This document shows positions 835 through 15,422 of a stretch of 16,498 nt of DNA, one piece after another. Each line of letters opens with the position of its first letter. Positions within the stretch are counted from its first letter, which is position 1. The stretch lies in IMG/VR virus record IMGVR_UViG_2728369591_000008, positions 1-16,498 of that record. One strand, given 5' to 3'. The notes under the pieces are model-generated. The model made no database searches. It saw nothing but the letters and a program-made list of their open reading frames with translations, and was not told the DNA's origin. Origin of the DNA: a virus (taxonomy: Duplodnaviria > Heunggongvirae > Uroviricota > Caudoviricetes). Both the position numbers and the translations under genes were made by a program.

Positions 835-908
835 GCGGGCGTAGTTCAATGGTAGAACGAGAGCTTCCCAAGCTCTATACGAGGGTTCGATTCCCTTCGC
901 CCGCTCCA
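835..908 (+). tRNA. glyU: tRNA-Gly (anticodon CCC), 74 nt
   Basis: Sequence GCGGGCGTAGTTCAATGGTAGAACGAGAGCTTCCCAAGCTCTATACGAGGGTTCGATTCCCTTCGCCCGCTCCA folds as a cloverleaf: 7-bp acceptor stem GCGGGCG/CGCCCGC, anticodon stem AGAGC/GCTCT with loop TTCCCAA, T-arm GGTTCGATTCC; no encoded CCA. Confidence 0.95.
891..908 (+). repeat. attL core (3' end of tRNA-Gly, TTCCCTTCGCCCGCTCCA)
   Basis: Direct repeat partner at 15406..15422 (TTCCCTTCGCCGCTCCA, 17 of 18 positions with one C deleted). Confidence 0.6.
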
Positions 909-922
909 AACAAACATTTCTC

Positions 923-1043
923 AACGTCTACTAAAGTCCATCAAACCCACGAATATCAAGCCTTCCAGCATTTTCATAGTTTATTAACGTCTACTCACAA
1001 CTACCAGAATCTACACACAGAAGTGTATAGTAATGCGTATAGG
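923..1043 (+). repeat. Candidate integrase arm-type sites in attL (AACGTCTACT at 923..932 and 986..995; GTGTATAGTAATGCGTATAGG at 1023..1043)
   Basis: Short direct repeats between the tRNA end and the int start; the GTGTATAG motif recurs near the other island end (15327..15350). Confidence 0.45.
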
Positions 1044-1071
1044 ACAAAATTTATTTTTTGGAGCTATACAC

Positions 1072-2286
1072 ATGCTGCTTTCAGACCTTGCCATCAGGCG
1101 CGCGAAGCCGAAAGAAAAGGCTTATACACTCAATGACGGTAACGGGCTTTCGTTGCTCATTGAGCCGAACGGTTCGAAAGGGTGGCGACTGCGCTACAGG
1201 TTTGCAGGAAAGCCCAAAATGTTGTCGTTGGGTGTGTACCCTGATGTGTCTCTGTCTGATGCCAGGGCGGCAAGGGATGAGGCTAAAAGGCTTCTTGCTG
1301 GTGGTATAAATCCAAGTGAGGCCAGAAAAGCCCAAAAGCGAGAACAGGCGAGCAAATTTGGCAATACTTTTGAGGGTATCGCTCGCGAATGGTACGAAAA
1401 GCGGATCGACAGGTGGTCATCGTCATACGCCGAGGAAATGATCGAGACGTTTGAAAAAGACGTTTTTCCGTACATTGGCGGTAGGCCGATCGCAGAAATT
1501 AAGCCGATGGAATTGCTGGCGGTTCTTTCCCGTCTTAATGACCGTGGTGCGACTGAAAAATTGCGTAAGGTTCGCCAGCGATGCGGCGAGGTGTTCCGGT
1601 ACGCAATCATCACCGGACGCGCCGAATATAATCCAGCCCCTGACCTGGTGAGCGCATTTGCTCCACATAAAAAAGAGCATTACGCCTATCTGAAGGCCGA
1701 CGAACTGCCGGAATTTTTCCGCGTTTTTAATACGTACACCGGAAGCCAGATCGTCAAACTGGCAATGCGGCTATTAATTCTGACAGGTGTCAGACCCGGG
1801 GAATTACGGCAGGCAGAATGGCAGGAGATCGATTTTGATAATCGTTTGTGGGAAGTGCCTAAAGAACGAATGAAGATGCGCCGTCCGCATTGTGTGCCAT
1901 TACCAGAACAGGCGATAAAAATACTGGAGCAGTTAAAAAACATGACAGGCCAGTATCAGTTTATTTTCCCCGGTCGTATTCACCACAGTAAGCCAATGAG
2001 TGAAATGGCGATGAATGTGCTCATTCGTCGTATCGGCTATGCCGGGCGCGTTACTGGTCATGGATTCCGGCACACCATGAGCACCATTTTGCATGAGCAG
2101 GGCTATAACACCGCGTGGATAGAAACGCAGCTCGCGCATGTCGATAAAAACTCAATTCGTGGCACATACAACCATGCGCAATATCTGGATGGCAGACGCG
2201 AAATGCTCCAGTGGTATGCCGACTATATGGATTCGCTCGAGCATGGCGGAAATGTGGTGCATGGTGAGTTCGGAAAATGCGGGTGA
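1072..2286 (+). CDS. int: Tyrosine recombinase / integrase, P4-like family (404 aa)
   Basis: N-terminus MLLSDLAIRRAKPKEKAYTLNDGNGLSLLIEPNGSKGWRLRYRF is typical of P4-type integrases; C-terminal catalytic motifs HGFRHT and RGTYNHAQY; RBS GGAG 1060..1063 before ATG 1072 (the track's upstream ATG at 1033 has no RBS). Confidence 0.93.
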   Translation: MLLSDLAIRRAKPKEKAYTLNDGNGLSLLIEPNGSKGWRLRYRFAGKPKMLSLGVYPDVSLSDARAARDEAKRLLAGGINPSEARKAQKREQASKFGNTFEGIAREWYEKRIDRWSSSYAEEMIETFEKDVFPYIGGRPIAEIKPMELLAVLSRLNDRGATEKLRKVRQRCGEVFRYAIITGRAEYNPAPDLVSAFAPHKKEHYAYLKADELPEFFRVFNTYTGSQIVKLAMRLLILTGVRPGELRQAEWQEIDFDNRLWEVPKERMKMRRPHCVPLPEQAIKILEQLKNMTGQYQFIFPGRIHHSKPMSEMAMNVLIRRIGYAGRVTGHGFRHTMSTILHEQGYNTAWIETQLAHVDKNSIRGTYNHAQYLDGRREMLQWYADYMDSLEHGGNVVHGEFGKCG

Positions 2287-2414
2287 CTGGTTGAGTATAC
2301 AGTAGTAGACTTTGAGCGACGAAAGAAAAGGCTGTGTCTAGGGTCGCTCCCGAAAATCCGTACACCTCGACGGACTGGTCCAGCCACTACAGTAGAGGAC
2401 GCTGAGGTGTGCGT

Positions 2415-13674: not shown

Positions 13675-14568
13675 ATGGCAAGACCAAAAAAATTAACTTA
13701 TGGGGCGGTGAATATAACAATGCATCCCCACTCGCCAGAAAAATATGTAGAATTGTTCAGAATGGCAAGAAAAAACGCGAGAAATGTTAATTTGAGGGGG
13801 GACTCTTTCGCGACTTTATCACACTTTTATCCTTACAGGAAAGATCAGGTAGTTAGTGAACCTTTTGAAGGGGAAATTCTAAAGTATACAGATATTGATG
13901 TTGATGGAGATTGGTTCGATATTGTAAAGAAAGACATTGCCTCAGATGAGCAAAAGGAAAGGATAAGTATACCTGAGAATTTAAAACCAAATGTGGCTCG
14001 ATTCTCTTTTGTTTTTCTACCTGCCAGCCATCTTTTAGTTTATGAGATGCAGGACAAAGGTCGGCATCTTACATCAAAACAAATAGAAAATTTTCTGAAT
14101 GGAATATTTTCTCATGAGAGAATTATAGAGAAGTTTGGGAAGATTAATGTTACAATATTAACCGAGCCAGATAACGTAGAACGTATGCTTTCTTTAAAAG
14201 GCATTACGTGTATAAATATGGTTACTCGACGTCCTAACCCAGATGATCTCGCTTCTGCAGAAAGTATTATGCAAAAGCGTTTCAAACGTATTGGCGTTAT
14301 TGAAGAAGATAAAACATATAAATCTGAGCGTGGTCAGGAAATTAAACCTGATAGTGAGTTAAAGCAGGATGCTCTTATTGCTTCGAGAAATGGCGAAGTT
14401 AGCATACGTAGGATTAATGAGGCGGGATTAGTTGAGGTTCATGCCTCAAGCGATTTACCACTTCAAAGGGTTGAATCATATGATTCTGACGTAACATCAG
14501 TTACTGAGCTATTGTTATTAAGAGCAAAATCTTTAGCAGATGAGTTTAAGAGGCTTCTGAGAAAGTAA
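13675..14568 (+). CDS. Hypothetical soluble protein (297 aa), gene A of AT-rich two-gene cassette; candidate defense sensor/enzyme
   Basis: Long ORF in a visibly AT-rich stretch; no transmembrane segments; no motif I recognise; stop overlaps the downstream start (TAATG). Confidence 0.8.
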   Translation: MARPKKLTYGAVNITMHPHSPEKYVELFRMARKNARNVNLRGDSFATLSHFYPYRKDQVVSEPFEGEILKYTDIDVDGDWFDIVKKDIASDEQKERISIPENLKPNVARFSFVFLPASHLLVYEMQDKGRHLTSKQIENFLNGIFSHERIIEKFGKINVTILTEPDNVERMLSLKGITCINMVTRRPNPDDLASAESIMQKRFKRIGVIEEDKTYKSERGQEIKPDSELKQDALIASRNGEVSIRRINEAGLVEVHASSDLPLQRVESYDSDVTSVTELLLLRAKSLADEFKRLLRK

Positions 14569-15167
14569 TGAGTAAAGTAAAAGAATCAACCAGTGCAATG
14601 GCTAGATACTGGAAGATCTATGGTGGCGCTGGGGCTGTATTTAAAAGTCGCTATTTTTGGTGTGCTTTTTTTATGACAGTGATTCTTTATCCATCTTGGT
14701 CTCATCAGGGGTGGTGGAATGATATTCTGTCGTTAATGCCGAACCTTTTGGGTTTTTCACTGGGTGGTTTTGCTATGTGGATTGCTATTGGAGATGAGGC
14801 TTTCAAAAAAATAATAACTGGAGATGAAGAAAGTGAAAATGGAGAGGTAGAATATTCTCCTTATATGTCTGTGAATGCAACCTTTGTTCATTTTATATTA
14901 TTGCAGTTGTTAACTATAATAACGGCCTTGGTCACCAAGGCCTATAGTAGCATTCTCATAAATAACGCTTTTATGTATTATTATTTAGGTGTTGCTTACA
15001 GGTATGTACTGTTAACATTCAGCTTCTTTGCATACTTTATATTTATTTACTCAGTATTCTCTGCGTTAGCTGCCGTTTTTGCTATATTTCGTGTTTCTAG
15101 TTGGTATAATACTTTTATGACCTTACGAAACAAACAAGATAACGCTAAAAATAATAAGGAGGAATAA
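14568..15167 (+). CDS. Integral membrane protein (199 aa, about four TM helices), gene B of two-gene cassette; candidate membrane effector
   Basis: Hydrophobic helices near YFWCAFFMTVILYPSW, ILSLMPNLLGFSLGGFAMWIAIG, VNATFVHFILLQLLTIITALV, YVLLTFSFFAYFIFIYSVFSALAAVFAIF; charged C-terminal tail; translationally coupled to gene A. Confidence 0.8.
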   Translation: MSKVKESTSAMARYWKIYGGAGAVFKSRYFWCAFFMTVILYPSWSHQGWWNDILSLMPNLLGFSLGGFAMWIAIGDEAFKKIITGDEESENGEVEYSPYMSVNATFVHFILLQLLTIITALVTKAYSSILINNAFMYYYLGVAYRYVLLTFSFFAYFIFIYSVFSALAAVFAIFRVSSWYNTFMTLRNKQDNAKNNKEE

Positions 15168-15326
15168 AAGCTCATTTCAAATTTTTACATCCGCGAAATT
15201 AAAAAAATGCGTTACGCTGGTGAGCGTCATGTCGATATGGGGATTCCCATAACGGGTTATCCGTGATCATCCACCAGCTTGCTCGCGGATAACAGGGGAT
15301 GCGAAATCCTCAAGCGAGTGATAAAC

Positions 15327-15350
15327 GTGTATAGAAATGTGTATAGAATC
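15327..15350 (+). repeat. Arm-type repeat GTGTATAGAAATGTGTATAGAATC near attR (related to 1023..1043 at attL)
   Basis: Tandem GTGTATAG copies in the same orientation as the attL-side GTGTATAGTAATGCGTATAGG. Confidence 0.45.
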
Positions 15351-15405
15351 TATTTTAGAACTCGAGAATGTGCCTTTATTACTGGTCTTGTTGCTTGTTG
15401 TATTG

Positions 15406-15422
15406 TTCCCTTCGCCGCTCCA
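15406..15422 (+). repeat. attR core: degenerate copy of tRNA-Gly 3' end (TTCCCTTCGCCGCTCCA)
   Basis: 17 of 18 positions identical to 891..908 with a single C deletion; lies just downstream of the AT-rich cargo. Confidence 0.55.

What the first reader, a model, noticed from the sequence alone, without database searches (positions are those of the whole stretch)
891..15422. Complete integrative island at tRNA-Gly(CCC) with satellite-like (PICI-like) gene content and recoverable att sites
The 18-nt 3' end of the tRNA (891..908) recurs with one deleted base at 15406..15422, and GTGTATAG tandem motifs lie just inside both ends (1023..1043 and 15327..15350), as expected for arm sites split between attL and attR. 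Between them are an integrase, AlpA, an antirepressor, a primase/helicase and an iteron origin, but no capsid, tail, terminase-large or lysis genes. That combination suggests an element that replicates and is mobilised by a helper phage rather than a defective prophage.
Basis: partly seen in the sequence, partly recalled or inferred. Interest (0 to 1): 0.6.

Follow-up and report, generated by a model that had tools for sequence, protein, structure and literature searches.

The report
Phage-satellite island at tRNA-Gly gene
This is an intact 14.5-kb mobile island, inserted at exactly defined ends into an E. coli tRNA-Gly gene, that belongs to the known family of phage-parasitising "PICI" islands and carries an anti-phage cargo; it is a well-built but fairly ordinary new member of that family.

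Summary
The island is window 909..15422 (14,514 bp). Joining base 908 directly to base 15423 reproduces, gaplessly and at 99.9% identity, the empty glyU locus of 196 complete E. coli genomes.

The GTGTATAG repeats are genuine integrase arm-type sites. They are invariant in sibling islands. Islands with a different integrase, including the experimentally validated EcCIMP1, show the same geometry with a different motif.

An attP-type junction (right arm, perfect 18-nt core, left arm) exists in one public metagenome contig and in none of 5,426 complete E. coli genomes.

The early gene order matches the prototype PICI EcCICFT073: int, alpA, ylcI on the opposite strand, icd, small ORFs, DUF4222, primase, iteron origin, perC. 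The primase is 44% identical over its full length. No structural, terminase-large or lysis genes were detected.

It differs from EcCICFT073 in having no capsid homologue, no Rpp and no lambda-type cos. In the Rpp position sits a winged-helix protein found only in such islands, always followed by a conserved array of five AAAGTGTCAA sites. The 3' cargo is a RexAB/CarolAnn-like abortive-infection gene pair.

Helper dependence remains inferred. Verdict: new member of a known kind, moderate interest.

The parts
835..908 (+). tRNA-Gly(CCC) gene (glyU); the integration target, intact including CCA
   Evidence: ARAGORN; Rfam tRNA 71.6 bits
891..908 (+). attL core: 18-nt identity segment TTCCCTTCGCCCGCTCCA (end of T-loop, T-stem 3' strand, acceptor 3' strand, CCA)
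   Evidence: the empty-site junction falls here
1023..1071 (.). Left (P'-type) arm: two tandem sites, GTGTATAG and GCGTATAG, 12 bp apart (1023, 1035, + strand), plus an inverted GTGTATAG (1064-1071) abutting the int start codon
   Evidence: 100% conserved in 4 glyU islands; same geometry with motif GGGGGTA in thrW-type islands, including EcCIMP1
1072..2286 (+). P4-family tyrosine integrase, 404 aa (Arm-DNA-bind_3, Phage_int_M, Phage_integrase)
   Evidence: Pfam E 1.9e-26 / 8.6e-33 / 2.8e-28; 100% identical to the integrase of two other glyU islands
2331..2398 (+). int-alpA RNA motif (Rfam RF02996), function unknown
   Evidence: 39.3 bits against a gathering score of 35.8, E 3.5e-5
2409..3212 (+). 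Accessory slot 1: 267-aa protein of unknown function, low GC (0.42), followed by a terminator-like hairpin
   Evidence: no Pfam, PHROG, PADLOC or NCBIfam hit; replaced by an unrelated gene in L001/L002; GC; hairpin
3229..3304 (.). Three ACCCTNAGGGT palindromes upstream of alpA; candidate AlpA or operator sites
   Evidence: found only here in the window; replaced by ACCGCAATTGCGGT x2 in islands with the other AlpA allele; linkage not excluded
3407..3604 (+). AlpA-family regulator, 65 aa; inferred master activator
   Evidence: Pfam Phage_AlpA E 2.4e-19; 81% identical to EcCIMP1 AlpA and 37% to EcCICFT073 AlpA; roles shown for those two in PMC11773190 and PMC6092414
3682..4482 (+). AntA/AntB-family antirepressor, 266 aa
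   Evidence: Pfam AntA E 2.6e-23; phrog_5817 anti-repressor E 2.1e-41
4753..5055 (-). YlcI/YnfO-family protein, 100 aa, divergently transcribed
   Evidence: NCBIfam NF041551 E 5.4e-20; 58% identical to the EcCICFT073 counterpart
5056..5263 (.). Divergent control region with a palindrome (TGTGTATA/TATACACA) and repeated TGTAT(A/C)TCAC motifs
   Evidence: the GTGTATAG copy here is also present in L002, so it is independent of the Int type
5264..5629 (+). Icd-like protein, 121 aa
   Evidence: phrog_6196 E 4.1e-31; annotated Icd-like in siblings; 76% identical over 62 aa to the EcCICFT073 gene
5622..6623 (+). Four overlapping small ORFs (74, 127, 77 and 66 aa), function unknown
   Evidence: phrog_5146/340/24341/2512 hits; conserved in siblings; two have EcCICFT073 homologues
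6628..6918 (+). DUF4222 protein, 96 aa, always immediately upstream of the primase
   Evidence: Pfam E 1.3e-19; 51% identical to the EcCICFT073 counterpart
6915..8720 (+). Primase/SF3-helicase replication initiator, 601 aa (D5_N, DUF5906, Pox_D5)
   Evidence: Pfam; phrog_864 DNA primase E 1.2e-155; 44% identical over full length to the EcCICFT073 pri-rep, E 2.5e-160
8721..9091 (.). Replication origin: iterons GGTAGAC(A/C/G)GTT in both orientations around AT-rich DNA (32% GC)
   Evidence: the iteron sequence changes with the initiator allele in siblings
9092..9634 (+). ProQ/FinO-domain protein, 180 aa
   Evidence: Pfam ProQ E 2.9e-22
9631..9918 (+). PerC-family transcriptional activator, 95 aa
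   Evidence: Pfam PerC E 3.8e-32; 52% identical to EcCICFT073 PerC and 49% to EcCIMP1 PerC
10053..11582 (+). Accessory slot 2 (GC 0.40): a 380-aa lipoprotein (lipobox LTGC; two helical hairpins plus an alpha/beta C-terminal domain), a terminator at 11207-11229, then a 107-aa membrane protein
   Evidence: the pair co-occurs in 23 related loci; a lipoprotein homologue sits after the primase and origin in Enterobacter islands; fold search uninformative
11861..12297 (+). Conserved late ORFs: 55 aa (11861-12028) and 90 aa (12025-12297), function unknown
   Evidence: the 55-aa ORF is conserved at 35-62% in diverged islands and in EcCIMP1; no family hit
12397..12924 (+). 175-aa winged-helix protein ('hth181'; the ORF opens at 12379), found only in such islands, in the position that Rpp occupies in EcCICFT073
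12925..13162 (.). Conserved cis-element: five exact AAAGTGTCAA sites (12931+, 12959-, 12985+, 13065+, 13121+) plus conserved blocks (CCGCCGTTACTGG, GCTTAGAAATGCTAAGG, CCCTAAGATTTCCTAAGG)
   Evidence: an array is present in 54 of 64 loci with an hth181 homologue of at least 50% identity, against 1 of 79 other loci, and that one is L153, which does encode the homologue
13163..13342 (+). 59-aa ORF, weakly similar to the last gene of EcCICFT073
   Evidence: 27% identity, E 6.6e-4
13675..15167 (+). Accessory slot 3 (GC 0.36): a DUF4747 protein (297 aa) and an overlapping multi-pass membrane protein (199 aa); a RexAB/CarolAnn-like two-gene abortive-infection candidate
   Evidence: Pfam DUF4747 E 9.5e-98, full length; phrog_10040 and phrog_20580; hydrophobic segments; DUF4747 plus 4-TM partner as a defence pair: PMC6426606, PMC7542560, PMC13373217; present in only 3-4 of ~140 related loci
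15327..15346 (+). Right (P-type) arm: two tandem GTGTATAG sites 12 bp apart, 79 bp before the core
   Evidence: invariant in 4 islands while adjacent bases vary; GGGGGTA sites 81 bp before the core in thrW-type islands
15406..15422 (+). attR core, TTCCCTTCGCC-GCTCCA (one C missing relative to attL)
   Evidence: a perfect 18-mer in two sibling islands and in the attP contig

Best explanation
Window 909..15422 is an intact 14,514-bp integrative island of the Gram-negative PICI (phage-inducible chromosomal island) family, inserted in the 3' end of the E. coli tRNA-Gly(CCC) gene glyU.

Shown here:
- The boundaries are exact to the base.
- The ends carry an 18-nt core. The arm sites are two tandem copies plus one inverted copy at the int start on the left, and two tandem copies on the right.
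- The arm motif co-varies with the integrase.
- The gene order int / [cargo] / alpA / antA / ylcI (opposite strand) / icd / small ORFs / DUF4222 / primase-helicase / iteron origin / proQ / perC is that of the experimentally characterised EcCICFT073, and partly that of EcCIMP1.
- The iterons co-vary with the initiator allele.
- Cargo sits in three low-GC slots.
- Right arm, core and left arm are found joined in a metagenome contig.

Inferred by analogy with EcCICFT073 and EcCIMP1:
- A helper phage switches on alpA.
- AlpA activates the rightward operon.
- Int, possibly with AlpA, excises the island by recombination between the cores.
- The primase-helicase fires the iteron origin and produces concatemers.
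- The DNA is packaged into helper virions and re-integrates at glyU.
- AntA may derepress a resident helper prophage.

Packaging does not use a lambda-type cos site or an Rpp homologue. My best guess, at about 35-40%, is that the island-specific winged-helix protein at 12397-12924, together with the five AAAGTGTCAA sites just downstream, is the DNA-recognition module for packaging. The alternative is a transcriptional switch.

The DUF4747 and membrane-protein pair at the 3' end is predicted to be a RexAB-like abortive-infection defence carried as cargo.
For: - Boundaries: the empty site is reproduced gaplessly in 196 genomes. The same end lies next to two different flanks.
- att architecture and Int-specific motif swap.
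- attP-type junction: present in metagenome contig Ga0209547_100127; absent as one piece from 5,426 complete E. coli genomes.
- Domains.
- Synteny and homology with EcCICFT073: primase 44% over full length, DUF4222 51%, PerC 52%, Icd 76% over 62 aa, YlcI 58%.
- Homology with EcCIMP1: AlpA 81%, Int 66%, AntA 58%.
- Origin iterons and their co-variation with the initiator allele.
- Nine islands of this Int lineage measure 7.8-17.3 kb. The six whose gene maps I read, this one included, show no structural genes.
- The core of the island also occurs behind a different integrase at tRNA-Thr.
- hth181 is exclusive to such islands and is tied to the site array.
- Published PICI criteria: PMC6092414 and PMC10085698.
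Against: - No helper phage is known, and nothing here shows phage-dependent induction or packaging.
- No capsid-morphogenesis or small-terminase homologue is recognisable, so only 3 of the 5 SatelliteFinder core components are certain. The authors call such cases 'Type C' and treat them as ambiguous.
- There is no lambda cosN, although the same search finds both cos sites in EcCICFT073.
- hth181 shows no sequence relation to RppA/RppC or TerS beyond the helix-turn-helix.
- No similarity to 50,697 phage genomes, and no attP junction in IMG/VR.
- The attP contig belongs to a sibling island that is about 97% identical over the left third and carries a different late module. It is not closed into a circle, and it could in principle come from a tandem array.
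- The attR core of this copy lacks one base, which might lower excision efficiency.
Confidence: 0.75

Rival explanations
1. A cryptic, decaying remnant of a P4-like satellite or prophage (like CP4-57). It still has an integrase and att sites but is no longer mobilised by anything.
For: P4-family integrase, AlpA and P4-family primase C-terminal domain (TIGR01613 E 2.1e-27, below its cut-off). SatelliteFinder's authors note that int + alpA + primase alone also describes P4-like elements. One base is deleted from the attR core.
Against: All backbone genes are full length, with no frameshift or IS. No ORF hits Psu, Sid, Delta or Epsilon families. The same size class and organisation recur in many genomes with exchanged modules, which implies ongoing mobility. 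An attP-type junction exists in nature.
Confidence: 0.1
2. An integrative mobilisable element that spreads by conjugation or generalised transduction rather than by specific phage piracy. In this reading the replication module serves only for transient maintenance.
For: A ProQ/FinO-domain gene is present. Some Enterobacter 'PICIs' with the same left module carry VirB/VirD4 genes (PMC13612085). No packaging gene is recognisable.
Against: No relaxase, coupling protein or T4SS domain in any ORF. The closest characterised relatives, EcCICFT073 and EcCIMP1, are phage-mobilised. The backbone genes AlpA, Icd, DUF4222-primase and PerC are those of PICIs.
Confidence: 0.07
3. The hth181 protein plus the AAAGTGTCAA array is not a packaging module. 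It is a transcriptional switch (repressor or activator) for the downstream accessory slot, or an excision cofactor.
For: The N-terminal fold matches Xis, Cox, BldC and MerR-type regulators as well as TerS. The array lies between hth181 and the downstream orf59 and cargo genes. NCBIfam gives a weak 'excise' domain hit.
Against: The array is conserved whatever cargo follows: DUF4747 pair, nothing, or another gene. Its position corresponds to rppA and its flanking cos sites in EcCICFT073. This rival concerns one module only and does not affect the island's identity.
Confidence: 0.35

Closest known systems
EcCICFT073 (prototype Gram-negative PICI, E. coli CFT073; PMC6092414, PMC6739421)
   Same: The backbone order is the same: int, alpA, ylcI on the opposite strand, icd, four small ORFs, DUF4222, primase, iteron origin, perC, late genes, a winged-helix gene, a small terminal ORF. 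Detectable homology: primase 44% (full length), DUF4222 51%, PerC 52%, YlcI 58%, Icd 76% over 62 aa, AlpA 37%, Int 26%. Similar size class, and no tail or lysis genes.
   Different: EcCICFT073 has a capsid homologue, a head-decoration gene, RppA and two exact lambda-type cosN sites flanking rppA. It has SSB where this island has ProQ/FinO. This island has none of the four. Instead it carries an unrelated 175-aa winged-helix protein with an AAAGTGTCAA array, an AntA antirepressor, and a different att site and integrase.
EcCIMP1 (E. coli MP1 PICI mobilised by the P22-like phage Kapi1; PMC11773190)
   Same: AlpA 81%, Int 66%, AntA 58% and PerC 49% identical, and the conserved 55-aa late ORF is 46% identical. 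The att geometry is the same: two tandem arm sites 12 bp apart on each side and an inverted copy at the int start. Neither has a lambda cos site. A near-identical core of the window island sits at the EcCIMP1 site (tRNA-Thr, proA side) in strain SCU-104.
   Different: EcCIMP1 integrates at tRNA-Thr and uses arm motif GGGGGTA. It has a TOPRIM/DUF927 primase with different iterons. It carries P22-like ejection-protein genes and a second alpA, lacks hth181 and its array, and is 20 kb long.
P4-like satellites
   Same: P4-family integrase targeting a tRNA gene, an AlpA/Vis-type regulator, a P4-family primase-helicase and a similar size.
   Different: No psu, delta, sid or epsilon (no PHROG or Pfam hit from any ORF). 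The gene order is also different.
Capsid-forming PICIs (cf-PICI, e.g. EcCIEDL933)
   Same: The left module (int, alpA, AntA, YlcI/YnfO, Icd, primase) is shared, according to PMC10085698 and PMC13612085.
   Different: [quoted passage not shown]
Lambda RexAB, and Gordonia phage CarolAnn gp44/gp43 and mycobacteriophage Sbash gp30/gp31, exclusion systems (closest known relatives of the cargo at 13675-15167)
   Same: A cytoplasmic DUF4747-domain protein followed by a small multi-pass membrane protein, encoded as a two-gene cassette on a mobile element.
   Different: No detectable sequence similarity to any solved structure and no PADLOC v2 model hit. Here the gene order is sensor then membrane protein, with overlapping stop and start. 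Defence activity is untested.

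Membership tests
PICI (criteria of Fillol-Salom et al. 2018, PMC6092414) | Conserved organisation with an integrase, a master regulator (AlpA in Gram-negatives) and a replication module | tested here: met
   Domains; synteny and homology with EcCICFT073
PICI (criteria of Fillol-Salom et al. 2018, PMC6092414) | Absence of phage structural and lysis genes | tested here: met
   No such Pfam or PHROG family hit from any ORF. Caveat: several ORFs have no hit at all.
PICI (criteria of Fillol-Salom et al. 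2018, PMC6092414) | Size about 12-15 kb | tested here: met
   14,514 bp between exact ends
PICI (criteria of Fillol-Salom et al. 2018, PMC6092414) | A specific att site that is never occupied by prophages | tested here: inconclusive
   Nine occupants with this integrase lineage are 7.8-17.3 kb islands. The rest of the 79 carrier genomes were not inspected.
PICI (criteria of Fillol-Salom et al. 2018, PMC6092414) | Replication origin of iterons flanking AT-rich DNA next to pri-rep | tested here: met
   iterons co-vary with the initiator allele
PICI (criteria of Fillol-Salom et al. 2018, PMC6092414) | Helper-phage-dependent induction, specific packaging into phage particles, high-frequency transfer and interference with the helper | not testable with these tools
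   Only indirect evidence: an attP-type junction of a sibling island in a metagenome contig
PICI as modelled by SatelliteFinder (PMC10085698) | At least 4 of 5 core components (integrase, regulator, primase-replicase, capsid morphogenesis, small terminase) | tested here: inconclusive
   Three are certain. No capsid-morphogenesis hit. The only 'terS' signal is phrog_57 at E 1.8e-6, confined to the helix-turn-helix of hth181. SatelliteFinder's own profiles could not be run. At 3 of 5 the element would be 'Type C'.
PICI as modelled by SatelliteFinder (PMC10085698) | No forbidden components (tail, holin, cf-PICI portal or connectors) | tested here: met
P4-like satellites | psu-delta-sid operon and epsilon, in addition to int, alpA and alpha | tested here: not met
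   No hit to these families from any ORF
cf-PICI | Own capsid, protease, portal, head-tail adaptor/connector and terminase large subunit | tested here: not met
Rpp (redirecting phage packaging) proteins, tested for hth181 | Sequence homology to RppA, RppB or RppC | tested here: not met
   No PDB hit to RppC with the sequence or the profile. BLASTP against RppA aligns only 35 aa of the helix-turn-helix, E 0.06.
Rpp (redirecting phage packaging) proteins, tested for hth181 | N-terminal winged helix-turn-helix of the lambda TerS/MerR type | tested here: met
   [not shown]
Rpp (redirecting phage packaging) proteins, tested for hth181 | Adjacent lambda-type cos site | tested here: not met
   None within 2 mismatches. 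The positive control finds both cos sites in EcCICFT073.
RexAB / CarolAnn-type abortive infection pair, tested for 13675-15167 | A DUF4747-domain cytoplasmic protein encoded next to a small multi-pass membrane protein | tested here: met
   DUF4747 E 9.5e-98 covering the whole model; several hydrophobic segments in the 199-aa partner; literature
RexAB / CarolAnn-type abortive infection pair, tested for 13675-15167 | Protection against phage by membrane depolarisation | not testable with these tools
   No PADLOC model hit

The most novel reading that the evidence does not exclude
The 175-aa winged-helix protein (12397-12924) and its conserved downstream array of five AAAGTGTCAA sites could form a previously undescribed packaging-redirection module. 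It would be functionally analogous to Rpp plus cosB, but unrelated in sequence and used with non-lambda (probably headful/pac) helpers. The module is found only in int-alpA-primase islands across Enterobacterales. If this is right, it defines a third way for Gram-negative PICIs to capture a helper's terminase.
Probability: 0.25. Interest if true: 0.6.

Novelty: new member of a known kind. Interest (0 to 1): 0.38.

Why it matters
The island is a clean, base-resolved example of a PICI-type satellite. It has the early and replication backbone of EcCICFT073 but none of the known piracy genes, which shows how modular these elements are. Integrase with its arm sites, initiator with its iterons, AlpA with its upstream palindromes, and three cargo slots all swap independently.

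It places a RexAB-like abortive-infection pair on a phage satellite, in line with the view that satellites distribute anti-phage defence.

It also singles out a conserved protein-plus-site module as a concrete candidate for how this PICI subgroup, which lacks cos and Rpp, gets packaged. That is currently unknown, even for EcCIMP1-like elements.

Tried and rejected
- Lambda cosN search in the window: none within 2 mismatches. The control in EcCICFT073 was positive.
- Rpp or TerS homology of hth181: PDB phmmer, PDB profile search, BLASTP against RppA and tblastn against 50,697 phages gave nothing beyond the helix-turn-helix. The BFVD fold search returned only HTH and excisionase hits at E > 0.1.
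- PADLOC: no defence model for any late or cargo protein.
- DUF4747 protein against PDB sequences: nothing.
- Whole island against INPHARED phages by megablast: no match.
- attP pattern in IMG/VR and in GTDB representative genomes: no match.
- Alignment of alpA upstream regions across islands: not conserved; each allele has its own palindromes.
- Sigma-70 promoter scan: fewer hits than in shuffles, not informative.
- Literature search for a described glyU PICI: none found.
- Considered and rejected: the GTGTATAG sites as AlpA/Xis sites (L001 and L002 share one AlpA protein but differ in motif), and the AAAGTGTCAA array as a second origin (it is independent of the initiator type).

Full report
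**Observation**

The window carries one tRNA gene, tRNA-Gly(CCC), at 835..908, downstream of actS/ygeR (1..756). Its last 18 nt, TTCCCTTCGCCCGCTCCA (891..908), recur at 15406..15422 with one C missing.

I built the junction that an empty site should have (window 501-908 joined to 15423-15922) and searched 5,426 complete E. coli genomes. It matches as one gapless 908-bp piece at 99.8-99.9% identity, and 196 genomes cover at least 80% of it in one place. The island is therefore 909..15422 (14,514 bp), up to the ambiguity of the repeat itself. The DNA to its right is ordinary chromosome, so no prophage continues beyond 15422.

Sibling islands in other strains end at the same base but abut two different right flanks. 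Two of them have a perfect 18-nt right repeat.

**Arm sites**

GTGTATAG occurs exactly five times in the window against 0.23 expected; none of 200 shuffles reached five.

- Two tandem copies (the second is GCGTATAG) lie 12 bp apart at 1023 and 1035.
- An inverted copy at 1064-1071 abuts the int ATG at 1072.
- Two tandem copies 12 bp apart lie at 15327 and 15339, 79 bp before the right core.

In four glyU islands these octamers are invariant while adjacent bases vary.

The decisive comparison is with islands that carry a 66%-identical integrase at tRNA-Thr: strain SCU-104 (L002) and EcCIMP1 (L003), whose excision was shown experimentally (PMC11773190). They have the same layout: two tandem sites 12 bp apart on each side, an inverted copy at the int start, and the right pair 81 bp before the core. 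Their motif, however, is GGGGGTA(C/T).

L001 (glyU integrase) and L002 (thrW integrase) encode the identical AlpA protein yet differ in motif. The motif therefore follows the integrase, not AlpA.

The fifth GTGTATAG copy (5087) lies in an operator-like palindrome that is also present in L002, and is unrelated.

**Evidence for recombination in nature**

I searched for an attP-type junction: right arm, core, left arm. It occurs once in the metagenome collection, in contig Ga0209547_100127 (14,517 bp). It does not occur in IMG/VR or in GTDB representative genomes.

Read in reverse, the contig runs as follows:

- 98 bp of right arm with both GTGTATAG sites, 91% identical to the window;
- the perfect 18-nt core;
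- the left arm, int and the rest of a sibling island, 97% identical over window 891-5624.

The contig is not closed into a circle and belongs to a sibling with a different late module.

None of the 5,426 complete E. coli genomes contains this junction in one piece; the two halves are always apart. An excised or concatemeric form is therefore more likely than a tandem array, though a tandem array is not excluded. Either origin requires recombination at exactly these ends.

**Gene content**

- P4-family integrase (1072-2286)
- Rfam int-alpA RNA motif (2331-2398)
- unknown 267-aa gene (2409-3212)
- AlpA (3407-3604)
- AntA antirepressor (3682-4482)
- YlcI/YnfO-like gene on the opposite strand (4753-5055)
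- Icd-like gene (5264-5629)
- four small ORFs (5622-6623)
- DUF4222 (6628-6918)
- D5_N/DUF5906/Pox_D5 primase-helicase (6915-8720)
- 371-bp, 32% GC gap holding eight of the nine GGTAGAC iterons in the window
- ProQ/FinO-domain protein (9092-9634)
- PerC (9631-9918)
- 380-aa lipoprotein with its own terminator, plus a 107-aa membrane protein (10053-11582)
- ORFs of 55 and 90 aa (11861-12297)
- 175-aa winged-helix protein (12397-12924)
- 59-aa ORF (13163-13342)
- DUF4747 protein plus a 199-aa multi-pass membrane protein (13675-15167)

No ORF hits a capsid, portal, tail, large-terminase, holin or endolysin family. All backbone genes are full length.

**Relatives**

No complete E. coli genome covers 80% of the window. 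The island is a mosaic.

- The int and right arm (15178-15422) are shared with other glyU islands.
- The core (about 2050-15177) occurs behind a different integrase at tRNA-Thr.

Iteron sequence changes with the initiator allele: GGTAGACAGTT with primases at least 94% identical, GTGAACAG-type with a 55% primase, and other repeats with a RepA helicase or a TOPRIM/DUF927 primase.

About 79 of 5,426 genomes carry this attL and int. The nine islands of this integrase lineage that I could size are 7.8-17.3 kb.

GC content separates a backbone at 0.49-0.57 from three low-GC cargo slots at 0.42, 0.40 and 0.36. Two of these slots, the one between int and the regulator and the one after the Rpp/terS position, are where SatelliteFinder's authors describe PICI accessory genes.

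**Comparison with characterised PICIs**

I fetched EcCICFT073 from the CFT073 genome. Its order is int, alpA, ylcI on the opposite strand, icd, four small ORFs, DUF4222, primase, origin, SSB, perC, capsid homologue, decoration protein, hypothetical, RppA (144 aa), hypothetical. This is the same backbone as here.

Identity of the window proteins to their EcCICFT073 counterparts:

| Protein | Identity |
|---|---|
| Primase | 44%, full length, E 2.5e-160 |
| DUF4222 | 51% |
| PerC | 52% |
| YlcI | 58% |
| Icd | 76% over 62 aa |
| AlpA | 37% |
| Int | 26% |
| orf59 vs last gene | 27% |

Against EcCIMP1: AlpA 81%, Int 66%, AntA 58%, PerC 49%.

The published criteria for Gram-negative PICIs are an organisation with int, regulator and replication module; a specific att site; no structural or lysis genes; and a size of 12-15 kb (PMC6092414). 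They are met, except that exclusivity of the att site was only sampled.

SatelliteFinder's model needs four of five core components. Three are certain here, none resembles a capsid-morphogenesis gene, and the only 'terS' signal is a helix-turn-helix-limited PHROG hit. I could not run the tool itself.

P4-like and cf-PICI membership fail on their defining genes.

**The packaging question**

EcCICFT073 has two exact lambda cosN sites flanking rppA, and my search recovers both. The window and its siblings have none.

In the rppA position the window has a 175-aa protein.

- Its family is confined to Enterobacterales and has no informative functional name (only generic 'DNA-binding protein', 'helix-turn-helix' or 'Repressor' labels from a few sources).
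- It is absent from 50,697 phage genomes.
- At 39-99% identity it always lies a few kb downstream of a primase, near the 3' end of int-alpA-primase islands.
- The C-terminal alpha/beta domain has no informative analogue.
- There is no sequence relation to Rpp.

Immediately after its stop codon lie five exact AAAGTGTCAA sites (12931+, 12959-, 12985+, 13065+, 13121+). These are the only copies in the window.

The array keeps the same order and orientation, along with other conserved blocks, in islands whose protein is only 51-60% identical. Across all fetched loci, an array accompanies 54 of 64 homologues of at least 50% identity. It appears in 1 of 79 other loci, and that one (L153) in fact encodes the homologue.

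The array is independent of integrase type, initiator type and downstream cargo. I read this as a protein and cognate-site module. A packaging-recognition role, analogous to Rpp-cosB or TerS-pac, is my preferred guess from position and fold. A transcriptional switch is about equally possible.

**Cargo**

The DUF4747 hit is full length (E 9.5e-98). The overlapping downstream gene encodes a protein with several hydrophobic segments.

A DUF4747 protein with a four-helix membrane partner is the architecture of lambda RexA/RexB, Gordonia phage CarolAnn gp44/gp43 and mycobacteriophage Sbash gp30/gp31. CarolAnn and Sbash are demonstrated defence pairs, and the architecture is now listed among immune operons (PMC6426606, PMC7542560, PMC13373217).

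The pair occurs in only 3-4 of about 140 related loci, so it is cargo. PADLOC v2 has no model for it.

The lipoprotein recurs directly after the primase and origin in Enterobacter islands. Its function stays unknown.

**Verdict**

What is there is an intact, precisely bounded PICI-family island at glyU: a new mosaic member of a known and common kind. Helper dependence, packaging and defence activity are inferences.

The modest novelty lies in three things: the absence of every known piracy gene, the hth181 and AAAGTGTCAA module, and the RexAB-like cargo.

Noticed in passing
window 2331-2398 (+): Rfam int-alpA RNA motif (RF02996) above its gathering score (39.3 against 35.8 bits), just after the int stop codon and before the 267-aa cargo gene. 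It is a known motif of unknown function.
   Followed up: no
window 5197-5269 (-): Sub-threshold match to the SymR antisense RNA family (35.7 bits against a gathering score of 61, E 0.0013), antisense to the ribosome-binding site and start of the Icd-like gene. It could be an antisense regulator of the icd operon, or chance.
   Followed up: no
window 5056-5263: The divergent ylcI/icd control region holds a perfect palindrome (TGTGTATA..TATACACA) and about five TGTAT(A/C)TCAC repeats; probably operators for an unidentified regulator. One copy coincides with the integrase arm motif GTGTATAG but is also present in an island with a different integrase.
   Followed up: partly
window 3229-3304: Three ACCCTNAGGGT palindromes upstream of alpA, found nowhere else in the window. 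Islands with the other AlpA allele have two ACCGCAATTGCGGT palindromes at the same place. These are candidate allele-specific AlpA sites, although two of them also score as terminator-like hairpins of the upstream cargo gene.
   Followed up: partly
[not shown]
   Followed up: no
window 15406-15422: The right copy of the core lacks one C. The same deletion is in ETEC1748, which shares the right flank, but not in two islands with the other flank or in the attP contig. The deletion is therefore lineage-specific decay arising after insertion.
   Followed up: partly
L001 (NZ_LR882990) 10095-14800: In the ETEC L7_E1373 sibling the primase is replaced after about 129 residues by a RepA-family helicase with different iterons. 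An SDH-family Clp-fold serine protease and a transposase fragment are inserted there too; an example of replication-module exchange.
   Followed up: partly
L009 (Enterobacter, GCA_051194775.1) 1653-21140: Two related int-alpA-primase islands sit in tandem at one site, so tandem arrays of this class of element do occur in other genera.
   Followed up: no
L004 (ETEC1748) 19900-31500: Beyond the glyU island and a short stretch of chromosome lies a second element with a major capsid protein, a baseplate protein and its own integrase in the opposite orientation. It may be a separate small phage-like element next to the ETT2 region.
   Followed up: no
window 15728-16444: The right flank encodes a 132-aa ORF (15728-16126) and, on the opposite strand, an ORF (16160-16444) that is annotated as a YecR-family lipoprotein in related genomes. 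Both are part of the variable region between glyU and the ETT2 type III secretion island.
   Followed up: no
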